DNA from: Escherichia coli
Lineage (GTDB): Bacteria; Pseudomonadota; Gammaproteobacteria; Enterobacterales; Enterobacteriaceae
Reading direction: 5' to 3' (one strand)
Assembly: GCF_003334355.1 (NCBI RefSeq)
Contig: NZ_QOWP01000001.1
DNA: 64,000 bases
Made by a program: the position numbers and the translations under genes. The notes under the pieces were generated by a model, which was not told the DNA's origin, searched no databases, and saw only the letters and a program-made list of their open reading frames with translations. Shown here piece by piece: positions 28,588 through 28,818 of this stretch. How positions within the stretch are numbered: the stretch's first letter is position 1; every line of letters begins with the position of its first letter.

Positions 28588-28818
28588 TCAGACCCCGTTG
28601 GCAAGCCGCGTGGTTAACTCATCCATAAAATATCGCGCAATGGCAGGCATCCCCTTTCGCCCCGCAAATAAAGCATACAACGGTCTGGGTATGCCGCTCC
28701 ACGGTGCAAACAGGCGCACCAGTTCACCGTTCGCAAGCCCCTGTTTACAGGCAAATTGAGGCAATAACGCCACGCCATTCAACACAACCAGGGCGCGAAC
28801 TCGCTGAGCGAAATGCAT
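28588..28818 (-). pseudogene. yqfE: LysR-family regulator C-terminal fragment (yqfE-like remnant)
   Basis: 76-aa ORF resembling only the C-terminal effector-binding part of a LysR protein (…LVRLFAPWSGIPRPLYALFAGRKGMPAIARYFMDEL…); no HTH domain upstream. Confidence 0.5.

What the first reader, a model, noticed from the sequence alone, without database searches (positions are those of the whole stretch)
28588..28818. LysR-family gene remnant (yqfE) next to the intact LysR regulator argP
Only the C-terminal effector-domain portion of a LysR-type protein is present between rpiA and argP, with no HTH domain upstream. This is consistent with decay of a former divergently arranged regulator; the fragment may still be transcribed.
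Basis: partly seen in the sequence, partly recalled or inferred. Interest (0 to 1): 0.3.

Follow-up and report, generated by a model that had tools for sequence, protein, structure and literature searches.

The report
Deletion scar of a LysR gene (yqfE)
The short yqfE reading frame between rpiA and argP is the non-functional leftover of a roughly 3-kb deletion that removed most of a LysR regulator gene and the three redox genes it faced; the intact cluster survives in about 5% of E. coli strains, so this is an ordinary, already annotated pseudogene.

Summary
A 76-codon ORF lies at window 28588-28818 (minus strand). Residues 15-72 match only the last 58 positions of the Pfam LysR substrate-binding domain, and no HTH remains in any frame.

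It is a remnant of a divergently arranged LysR regulator, but the partner was not argP and the loss was not frameshift decay.

- **Intact allele:** 248 of 5426 complete E. coli genomes, three other Escherichia species and a Pseudocitrobacter MAG carry a 3.4-kb cluster between rpiA and argP. It holds a 298-aa LysR gene facing an azoreductase-like gene, a BhsA-like gene and a NOX-like ferric-reductase gene.
- **Scar structure:** the K-12-type allele (5177 of 5426 genomes) keeps LysR codons 236-298. These are joined to 58 bp from the antisense strand of the azoreductase 3' end, which supplies the ATG and first 12 codons. Then come 65 bp of untraceable DNA.
- **Origin:** all 46 scar alleles examined share the same junctions, so the scar arose once.
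- **Selection:** scar-private substitutions are neutral (10 at codon position 3, 17 at positions 1+2). Start loss, Q5*, R54* and 45-, 21- and 10-bp deletions segregate.

The gene is already annotated as YqfE. Interest is low.

The parts
28588..28780 (-). LysR-derived part of the scar: the stop codon (28588-28590), codons 14-76 of the yqfE ORF, which equal residues 236-298 of the intact 298-aa regulator (28591-28779), and the last LysR-derived base (28780), which belongs to the junction-straddling codon 13.
   Evidence: tblastn: 100% over 63 aa, E 7e-43. blastn: 96-100% identity to the intact alleles L001, L003 and L103. Pfam LysR_substrate model positions 151-208.
28781..28838 (+). 58-bp fragment of the 3' end of the lost azoreductase-like gene (about codons 181-200 of 209). 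Its antisense strand supplies the ATG (28816-28818) and codons 1-12 of the annotated yqfE ORF.
   Evidence: blastn: 91% to L001 13728-13785, inside the annotated FMN-dependent NADH-azoreductase CDS; 90-96% to other intact alleles.
28839..28903 (.). 65 bp with no traceable counterpart in any intact allele. It replaces about 1.7 kb (the azoreductase-like gene's last codons, the BhsA-like gene and the NOX-like gene). It may be filler or heavily diverged remains.
   Evidence: No significant match to L001, L003, L006-L009 or L103-L108. Best local alignment to the ferric-reductase 3' end is not above shuffles (165 of 2000). Single copy, found only in scar-bearing genomes (5177 of 5426). No protein relative. 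It is the most variable stretch (9 of 65 sites).
28904..28959 (+). argP upstream region shared by scar and intact alleles, presumably the argP promoter and leader. It contains the perfect palindrome ACACAA-AA-TTGTGT.
   Evidence: 98-100% identity to intact alleles. No recurrent variable site among 46 scar alleles.
28533..28587 (-). rpiA upstream region shared by both alleles. A perfect TATAAT on the minus strand at 28572-28567 lies 35 nt before the rpiA ATG. This is a candidate rpiA promoter (inference), whose -35/upstream region would overlap the yqfE stop codon.
   Evidence: Read directly from the sequence. One recurrent variable site in 55. The simple scan did not call it because the -35 is weak.

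Best explanation
yqfE is a neutral deletion scar, not a working gene.

The ancestral locus was rpiA, then a 298-aa LysR-type regulator, then a divergently transcribed azoreductase-like gene, a BhsA/DUF1471-like gene and a NOX-like ferric-reductase gene, then argP.

In the lineage that gave rise to about 95% of present-day E. coli (and Shigella), 1,346 bp were lost. That loss covered LysR codons 1-235, the 100-bp divergent promoter region and azoreductase-like codons 1 to about 181. A further 1.7 kb or so was replaced by 65 bp of untraceable sequence. The net loss is 2,990 bp.

The first junction placed LysR codons 236-298 in frame behind the antisense strand of the azoreductase 3' end, which happens to contain an ATG. 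This created a 76-codon ORF that gene callers annotate.

The fragment lacks the HTH, the linker helix and about three quarters of the effector-binding domain, so it cannot act as a LysR regulator. Since the deletion it has drifted neutrally.

Shown: the homology, the junctions, the single origin, the population frequencies and the neutral substitution pattern. Inferred: the direction of change (loss rather than gain), whether there was one complex event or two deletions, and the idea that the rpiA-proximal end of the scar persists because it abuts or overlaps the rpiA promoter.
For: (1) Intact allele at the same locus. Annotated records show rpiA, LysR (897 bp), azoreductase, DUF1471, ferredoxin-reductase-family gene, argP. 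It occurs in 248 of 5426 E. coli genomes, in E. whittamii, Escherichia sp. E1V33, Escherichia sp. MOD1-EC7003 and a Pseudocitrobacter MAG, always between rpiA and argP.

(2) Mosaic mapping of the window onto the intact allele: 28533-28780 = LysR 3' end (100% to L103); 28781-28838 = the interior of the azoreductase CDS; 28904 onwards = the argP side.

(3) No N-terminal LysR remains in any frame.

(4) All 46 distinct scar alleles from 81 contigs and genomes share both junctions.

(5) Neutral evolution. Scar-private variants split 10 at codon position 3 and 17 at positions 1+2; the neutral expectation is 9:18. Positions 1+2 vary at 5.6% of sites, against 0-1% in rpiA and argP. Position 3 in those genes, the neutral yardstick, varies at 7-9%.

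(6) Segregating lesions:
- a linked M1L + Q5* haplotype in 9-10 alleles, left unannotated by PGAP in the one complete genome checked with this haplotype (L005);
- R54*;
- stop-codon loss;
- 45-bp, 21-bp and 10-bp deletions.

(7) The 90%-identity protein cluster holds 528 sequence variants of this 76-aa ORF.
Against: A first pass gave pN/pS = 0.12 among five scar alleles, as low as among intact genes (0.14). This would suggest a translated, selected ORF.

With 46 alleles and 11 intact alleles the excess of synonymous sites is accounted for by 5-6 position-3 polymorphisms shared with intact alleles. These are either ancestral or exchanged by recombination across the shared rpiA-LysR 3' segment. 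However, the sample of intact alleles is small and the analysis is not phylogeny-aware.

Most alleles still have an open frame. Two of the three deletions seen are in frame. The lineage that lost the ATG gained a new ATG at codon 12 (V12M). Each of these can be chance in a 230-nt ORF with little divergence.

Transcription and translation were not tested. The origin of the 65 bp is unexplained, so a single event versus two events is undecided.
Confidence: 0.9

Rival explanations
1. The 76-aa (or shorter, 50-61 aa) product is a functional small protein. It would be an orphan C-terminal piece of a LysR effector domain, kept by selection, for example to interact with other LysR-type regulators.
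For: The ORF is open in most alleles. The initial pN/pS was 0.12. Position 3 is enriched among recurrent variants (11 of 18, p = 0.014). The 45-bp and 21-bp deletions are in frame. A V12M change creates a new ATG in the lineage that lost the original start.
Against: After removing polymorphisms shared with intact alleles, private variants are 10:17, which is neutral. Positions 1+2 vary 5-10 times more than in the flanking genes. The N-terminal 13 codons show only non-synonymous changes, including M1L and Q5*. R54* and stop loss occur. The 45-bp deletion removes 15 residues from the middle of the fragment in about a quarter of alleles. The fragment covers only model positions 151-208 of 209 of the domain, so by established LysR-family architecture it cannot form either subdomain. 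No literature reports a function.
Confidence: 0.04
2. The DNA is kept as regulatory sequence rather than as a gene. The LysR 3' end carries the rpiA promoter or upstream element, and/or the scar forms part of the argP control region or encodes a regulatory RNA.
For: A perfect TATAAT lies 35 nt before the rpiA ATG, so the -35/upstream region falls on the yqfE stop and last codons. In the intact allele the LysR stop is only 55 bp from rpiA, so any deletion that spared rpiA expression had to keep this end. 28533-28587 and 28904-28959 are almost invariant. One paper lists the yqfE-argP intergenic region as a computationally predicted CsrA-binding transcript, score 0.64 (PMC8144298).
Against: The constraint is confined to the about 55 bp next to each flanking gene. 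The body of the scar (28621-28903) varies at 9-14% of sites, at or above the position-3 rate of the flanking genes. The scar tolerates 45-bp, 21-bp and 10-bp deletions. An ERIC-like element sits between the scar and the TATAAT in EPEC, GF4-3 and MOD1-EC7003, separating the scar body from rpiA by 119-271 bp. No Rfam family matches and no consensus promoter or terminator is found.
Confidence: 0.05
3. The short allele is ancestral, and the 3.4-kb cluster was inserted later by horizontal transfer into some lineages. On this reading yqfE never was a full gene at this site in the K-12 lineage.
For: The cluster is rare in E. coli (4.6%). The azoreductase-derived piece of the scar differs by 8% from E. 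coli intact alleles while the flanks are 99-100% identical.
Against: The scar contains two non-adjacent internal pieces of the cluster, in cluster order and orientation. These are LysR codons 236-298 and azoreductase-like codons of about 181-200, and only a deletion from the long form explains this. The long form is syntenic in four other taxa, including another genus. At the sites where the scar's azoreductase piece differs from E. coli intact alleles, it shares the state of the other Escherichia species, so it looks ancestral rather than foreign.
Confidence: 0.01

Closest known systems
yqfE of E. coli K-12 (b2915; UniProt YQFE_ECOL6 'Uncharacterized protein YqfE'; RefSeq WP_000545308.1 'LysR substrate-binding domain-containing protein')
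   Same: It is this very locus. The window is 100% identical to K-12 records over 28400-29100, and the ORF has the same coordinates relative to rpiA and argP. From my own knowledge, the K-12 reference annotation lists yqfE as a LysR-family pseudogene.
   Different: Nothing differs in sequence. What this analysis adds to the database label: the intact allele survives in 4.6% of strains; the ORF is a deletion-made fusion with a foreign start; and it drifts neutrally. I found no paper describing this in the four full-text searches aimed at it, but the held library is incomplete.
Full-length LysR-type regulators nearest to the intact orthologue: NCBIfam PRK14997, YafC and AaeR equivalogs
   Same: The intact 298-aa protein aligns end to end with these models (E 1e-48, 6e-45, 1e-35). 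It has the classic divergent arrangement with its presumed target operon. The fragment's best NCBIfam matches include these three families.
   Different: Scores (166, 153 and 123 bits) are far below each family's cut-off (380, 470 and 425), so the intact protein is an unnamed LysR subfamily, not an orthologue of any of them. The K-12 fragment has no HTH and only the last quarter or so of the effector domain. It is not derived from the neighbouring argP: ArgP models score 54-57 bits against the intact protein.
Other decaying copies of the same cluster (E. coli with IS1 insertion or a split reductase gene; E. whittamii; Escherichia sp. E1V33; Escherichia sp. MOD1-EC7003)
   Same: Same locus and same genes, each losing function independently. 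Examples: IS1 in the ferric-reductase gene (L001); a split reductase (L105, L106); internal deletion or frameshifts (L006, L007); a LysR frameshift plus a DUF1471-reductase fusion deletion (L009).
   Different: Those are early-stage decay with most of the DNA still present. The K-12 allele is the end stage, with 88% of the DNA gone and only two fragments recognisable.

Membership tests
LysR-type transcriptional regulator (functional member) | N-terminal winged helix-turn-helix DNA-binding domain (Pfam HTH_1, PF00126) | tested here: not met
   Pfam finds only LysR_substrate. tblastn with the intact orthologue finds no trace of residues 1-235 in any frame of 28400-29100.
LysR-type transcriptional regulator (functional member) | Complete effector-binding domain (PF03466, about 209 positions; two subdomains) | tested here: not met
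   Only model positions 151-208 of 209 are matched, by residues 15-72.
LysR-type transcriptional regulator (functional member) | Length of about 300 aa, divergent from a target gene with a shared promoter region | tested here: not met
   The ORF is 76 aa. The ancestral divergent intergenic region (100 bp, L103 1855-1954) and the target genes lie within the deleted segment.
Pseudogene / deletion remnant | Homology to part of an intact gene found at the syntenic position in relatives | tested here: met
   100% identity to residues 236-298 of the intact gene, located between rpiA and argP in 248 E. coli genomes and 4 other taxa.
Pseudogene / deletion remnant | Defined deletion junctions shared by descent | tested here: met
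   Junction at 28780|28781 and the azoreductase fragment at 28781-28838, identical in all 46 alleles.
Pseudogene / deletion remnant | Neutral substitution pattern after inactivation | tested here: met
   Private variants split 10 (position 3) to 17 (positions 1+2). Positions 1+2 vary at 5.6% of sites against 0-1% in rpiA and argP. Caveat: site counts only, not a phylogenetic dN/dS.
Pseudogene / deletion remnant | Disabling lesions segregating in the population | tested here: met
   M1L, Q5*, R54*, stop loss, and 45-, 21- and 10-bp deletions. Singletons from low-coverage metagenome contigs may be sequencing errors. The 45-bp deletion and the M1L/Q5* haplotype are recurrent and also occur in complete genomes.
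Expressed small protein gene | Conserved start codon and ribosome-binding context | tested here: not met
   The start derives from antisense azoreductase sequence and is lost (ATG to TTG), together with Q5*, in 9-10 alleles.
Expressed small protein gene | Evidence of transcription and translation | not testable with these tools
   No expression data are available here. There is no consensus promoter, and neither of the two relevant yqfE papers read reports expression data.

The most novel reading that the evidence does not exclude
The scar is not entirely inert. Its rpiA-proximal end would supply the -35/upstream element of the rpiA promoter, which would explain why this gene fragment survived the deletion. 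Alternatively, the LysR-derived 50-76-aa peptide is made and retains some activity, such as interfering with oligomerisation of other LysR-type regulators. The lineage that lost the ATG but gained a new one at codon 12 would then be a case of start-codon replacement rather than coincidence.
Probability: 0.06. Interest if true: 0.4.

Novelty: already known. Interest (0 to 1): 0.15.

Why it matters
It matters little beyond annotation hygiene.

- **Annotation:** RefSeq/PGAP labels the same ORF in different strains as 'LysR substrate-binding domain-containing protein', 'type 2 periplasmic-binding domain-containing protein', 'hypothetical protein', or nothing at all. All of these are one pseudogene and should be flagged as such. 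The first 12 codons are not LysR-derived.
- **Method:** a naive pN/pS on a pseudogene can mimic purifying selection when the fragment still shares polymorphism with intact alleles elsewhere in the species.
- **The more interesting biology is what was lost:** an uncharacterised LysR-controlled redox module (azoreductase paralogue, BhsA-like periplasmic stress protein, membrane NOX-like flavocytochrome). It survives in about 5% of E. coli, including a record named ST69, and is decaying independently in several Escherichia lineages.

Tried and rejected
1. tblastn with the intact protein, word size 2, E up to 100: nothing but residues 236-298.

2. Origin of the 65 bp at 28839-28903.
- blastn-short against every intact allele, both strands: no hit.
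- A MAFFT-suggested alignment to the last codons of the ferric-reductase gene is not better than shuffles (165 of 2000).
- An in-register 'FNH' match to the azoreductase C-terminus (TTTAACCAC against TTTAATCAT) is suggestive, but it was noticed post hoc and the 12 nt in between match at chance level.
- No second copy exists in any E. coli genome.
- A protein search with the + strand reading found only spurious ORF calls on the same scar.
- The origin remains unresolved.

3. Purifying selection on the ORF. This was seriously considered after and rejected. The + strand shadow ORF (28598-28759) has its position 3 in register with the minus frame, so codon periodicity alone could not identify the coding strand in any case.

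4. Derivation from argP by duplication. Rejected: ArgP models rank far below PRK14997, YafC and AaeR.

5. Known RNA family in 27600-30100: none at E up to 1.

6. Consensus promoter and terminator scan of 28480-29000: none found.

7. Literature. Only incidental mentions of yqfE turned up: a deletion list for strain DGF-298 and a CsrA-binding prediction. The 'b2915' hits are unrelated. A TSS-mapping paper I wanted is not held, and a search for the rpiA promoter mapping paper did not retrieve it.

8. I could not obtain E. albertii, E. fergusonii or Salmonella loci.

Full report
**What is in the window.** The region is the serA-rpiA-argP-scpA neighbourhood of an E. coli K-12-like chromosome. Window 28400-29100 is 100% identical to K-12 records. 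In those records a 231-nt CDS is annotated between rpiA and argP as 'LysR substrate-binding domain-containing protein', WP_000545308.1. The ORF list shows it at 28588-28818 on the minus strand, 76 codons. rpiA is at 27873-28532 (minus). argP starts at 28960. Public sources name the same sequence 'Uncharacterized protein YqfE'.

**Check of the observation.**
- Pfam matches residues 15-72 to positions 151-208 of the 209-position LysR_substrate model, E 7e-7, and finds nothing else.
- NCBIfam gives only C-terminal partial matches to LysR-type equivalogs.
- There is no HTH.

**The intact allele.** A megablast of the region against 5426 complete E. coli genomes showed about 268 genomes that match only up to window 28780 and carry a full 'LysR family transcriptional regulator' there.

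In strain GF4-3 the order is rpiA, LysR (897 bp, same strand as rpiA), then divergently an FMN-dependent NADH-azoreductase-like gene (209 aa), a DUF1471/BhsA-like gene (86 aa) and a 441-aa 'ferredoxin reductase family' gene, then argP. The same order holds in TUM18530, EC09, 32F4 and a strain named ST69. In strains 48 and 23CRST027 the order is the same but the reductase gene is split into two ORFs. Strain B20105 also has this order, with an IS1 inside the reductase gene.

The 441-aa protein has a Ferric_reduct transmembrane domain followed by FAD_binding_8/6 and NAD_binding_1, a NOX/FRE-like architecture. The LysR protein is an unnamed subfamily nearest to PRK14997, YafC and AaeR, well below their cut-offs.

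Distribution:
- Part or all of the cluster is present in 248 of 5426 genomes, always once and always chromosomal.
- The scar-specific 65 bp is present in 5177 of 5426 genomes.
- Outside E. coli the cluster sits between rpiA and argP in Escherichia whittamii, Escherichia sp. E1V33, Escherichia sp. MOD1-EC7003 and a Pseudocitrobacter MAG. The last has 71% LysR identity and lacks the azoreductase-like gene.

**Anatomy of the scar.** Mapping the window onto the intact alleles gives a mosaic.

| Window coordinates | Origin |
|---|---|
| 28533-28780 | rpiA upstream DNA plus LysR codons 236-298 (100% identical to TUM18530) |
| 28781-28838 | 58-bp piece from inside the azoreductase-like CDS, about codons 181-200, same orientation as in the cluster, 90-96% identical |
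| 28839-28903 | no counterpart in any intact allele |
| 28904 onwards | argP upstream DNA |

Relative to TUM18530, the first junction removes 1,346 bp: LysR codons 1-235, the 100-bp divergent intergenic region and azoreductase-like codons 1 to about 181. About 1.7 kb more is replaced by the 65 bp. The rpiA-argP gap shrinks from 3,417 to 427 bp.

The yqfE reading frame runs leftwards from 28818. Its ATG and first 12 codons are therefore the antisense strand of the azoreductase fragment. Codon 13 spans the junction, and only codons 14-76 are LysR. This agrees with the Pfam match starting at residue 15.

Nothing was frameshifted; it was deleted.

**Single origin and later lesions.** I collected eight further alleles from complete genomes. 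I also collected 87 metagenome contigs containing the junction sequence. Of all contigs and genomes, 81 span the whole gap, giving 46 distinct alleles. All have the same junctions. Secondary events:
- a 45-bp in-frame deletion between two AGGC repeats, in 24 of 81 contigs and roughly a quarter of sampled complete genomes;
- a 21-bp in-frame deletion and a 10-bp deletion;
- a linked haplotype M1L + Q5* + V7L + V12M, in 9-10 alleles and always together with the 45-bp deletion; in the complete genome checked with this haplotype (CAVP776, L005) PGAP annotates no CDS;
- R54* and loss of the stop codon.

Singletons from low-coverage contigs may be sequencing errors. The recurrent events are also seen in finished genomes.

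**Is the ORF under selection?** A first estimate on five alleles was surprising. pN/pS was 0.12, the same as among intact genes (0.14), with 12 synonymous against 5 non-synonymous segregating sites. I treated this as a serious rival.

With 46 scar alleles and 11 intact alleles the signal dissolves:
- Five to six of the position-3 sites are polymorphisms also present among intact alleles, and one intact allele is identical to K-12 over the whole 192 nt. This variation was filtered by selection in intact genes. It is either ancestral or exchanged by recombination through the shared rpiA-LysR 3' segment.
- Variants private to the scar split 10 at position 3 and 17 at positions 1+2, against a neutral expectation of 9:18.
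- As a yardstick from the same contigs, rpiA and argP vary at 6.8-8.7% of position-3 sites and 0-1.0% of position 1+2 sites. In the scar, positions 1+2 vary at 5.6%, the 65-bp stretch at 13.8% and the azoreductase piece at about 8%.
- All four variants in the N-terminal 13 codons are non-synonymous.

I conclude that the scar drifts neutrally. The analysis counts sites, is not phylogeny-aware, and uses few intact alleles, so a small residual constraint cannot be excluded.

**Flanking regulatory DNA.** The 55 bp next to rpiA and the 56 bp next to argP are almost invariant: 1 and 0 recurrent variable sites.

On the minus strand a perfect TATAAT lies at 28572-28567, 35 nt before the rpiA ATG. Its -35 region would fall on the yqfE stop codon. 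The consensus scan did not call it, so this is my reading of the sequence, not a demonstrated promoter. If it is real, any deletion compatible with rpiA expression had to leave the very end of the LysR gene in place. That would explain survival of the last few codons, not of all 63.

No Rfam family matches the region.

**Direction of change.** Loss from the long form is the only reading that explains two non-adjacent internal fragments of the cluster lying in cluster order in the short form. The long form is also syntenic across several species.

Where the scar's azoreductase fragment differs from E. coli intact alleles, it carries the state found in the other Escherichia species. The scar lineage and the surviving intact E. 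coli alleles therefore separated long ago.

Other lineages are losing the cluster in their own ways: IS1 insertion, split or frameshifted reductase, a LysR frameshift, and an internal fusion deletion.

**Comparison with what is known, and verdict.** The locus is yqfE, already present in databases. From my own knowledge, it is listed as a LysR-family pseudogene in the K-12 reference annotation. The literature held here mentions it only incidentally.

It fails every defining feature of a functional LysR-type regulator and meets every feature of a deletion remnant. The added detail may not be written down anywhere: the surviving intact allele, the chimeric start and the neutral drift. It changes nothing conceptually.

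Interest is low. The most useful by-products are an annotation correction and a pointer to the uncharacterised redox cluster that K-12 lost.

Noticed in passing
L103 958-4249 (also L003 6312-9602, L108, L104, L107); absent from the window: An uncharacterised accessory cluster sits between rpiA and argP in 248 of 5426 E. coli genomes. It comprises a LysR regulator facing an azoreductase-like gene, a BhsA/DUF1471-like gene and a 441-aa membrane protein with Ferric_reduct + FAD_binding_8/6 + NAD_binding_1 domains (NOX/FRE-like). It looks like a LysR-controlled redox or stress module. No function is known to me.
   Followed up: partly
L001 14801-15498; L105/L106 2923-4247; L006, L007, L009: The same cluster is decaying independently in several lineages. 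Examples: IS1 inside the reductase gene, a reductase gene split into two ORFs, internal deletion or frameshifts in E. whittamii and Escherichia sp. E1V33, and a LysR frameshift plus a DUF1471-reductase fusion deletion in Escherichia sp. MOD1-EC7003. The Pseudocitrobacter locus (L008) lacks the azoreductase-like gene.
   Followed up: partly
window 28569-28572 (insertion site); L003 6174-6292; L004 (EPEC E2348/69), 271-bp insert: Some strains carry an ERIC/IRU-like repeat inserted at a duplicated TATA directly upstream of the TATAAT before rpiA. I recognised the motif 'CCCCAGGAGCTTACAGAAGTAAGTGACTGGGGTGAGCG' from memory. The element matches several places per genome. The insertion replaces the putative -35 region while keeping the -10. 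Its effect on rpiA expression is unknown.
   Followed up: partly
window 28567-28572, minus strand: A perfect TATAAT lies 35 nt upstream of the rpiA start codon with only a weak -35. The consensus scan did not call it. It is a candidate rpiA promoter overlapping the end of the yqfE ORF.
   Followed up: partly
window 28904-28917: A perfect palindrome, ACACAA-AA-TTGTGT, lies 43 nt upstream of the argP ATG. It sits inside a 56-bp stretch with no recurrent variation in 46 alleles and is also conserved in intact-allele strains. It may be an operator or promoter element of argP.
   Followed up: no
window 28839-28903: A 65-bp single-copy stretch is found only in scar-bearing genomes. It has no detectable source in any intact allele, elsewhere in E. 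coli genomes, or in the protein database. It is the most variable part of the gap.
   Followed up: yes
window 28588-28818 across RefSeq records: PGAP names the same pseudogene inconsistently in different strains: 'LysR substrate-binding domain-containing protein', 'type 2 periplasmic-binding domain-containing protein', 'hypothetical protein', or no feature. Some E. coli and Shigella records also carry a spurious + strand 'hypothetical protein' over 28704-28904.
   Followed up: partly
L001 20567-21342; L005 3113 onwards; L004 3429 onwards: The neighbouring scpA-meaB-scpB-scpC (methylmalonyl-CoA) operon carries frameshifts or truncations in several strains: scpB in B20105, scpA in CAVP776, and a truncated scpA in EPEC E2348/69. 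This suggests decay is also under way there.
   Followed up: no
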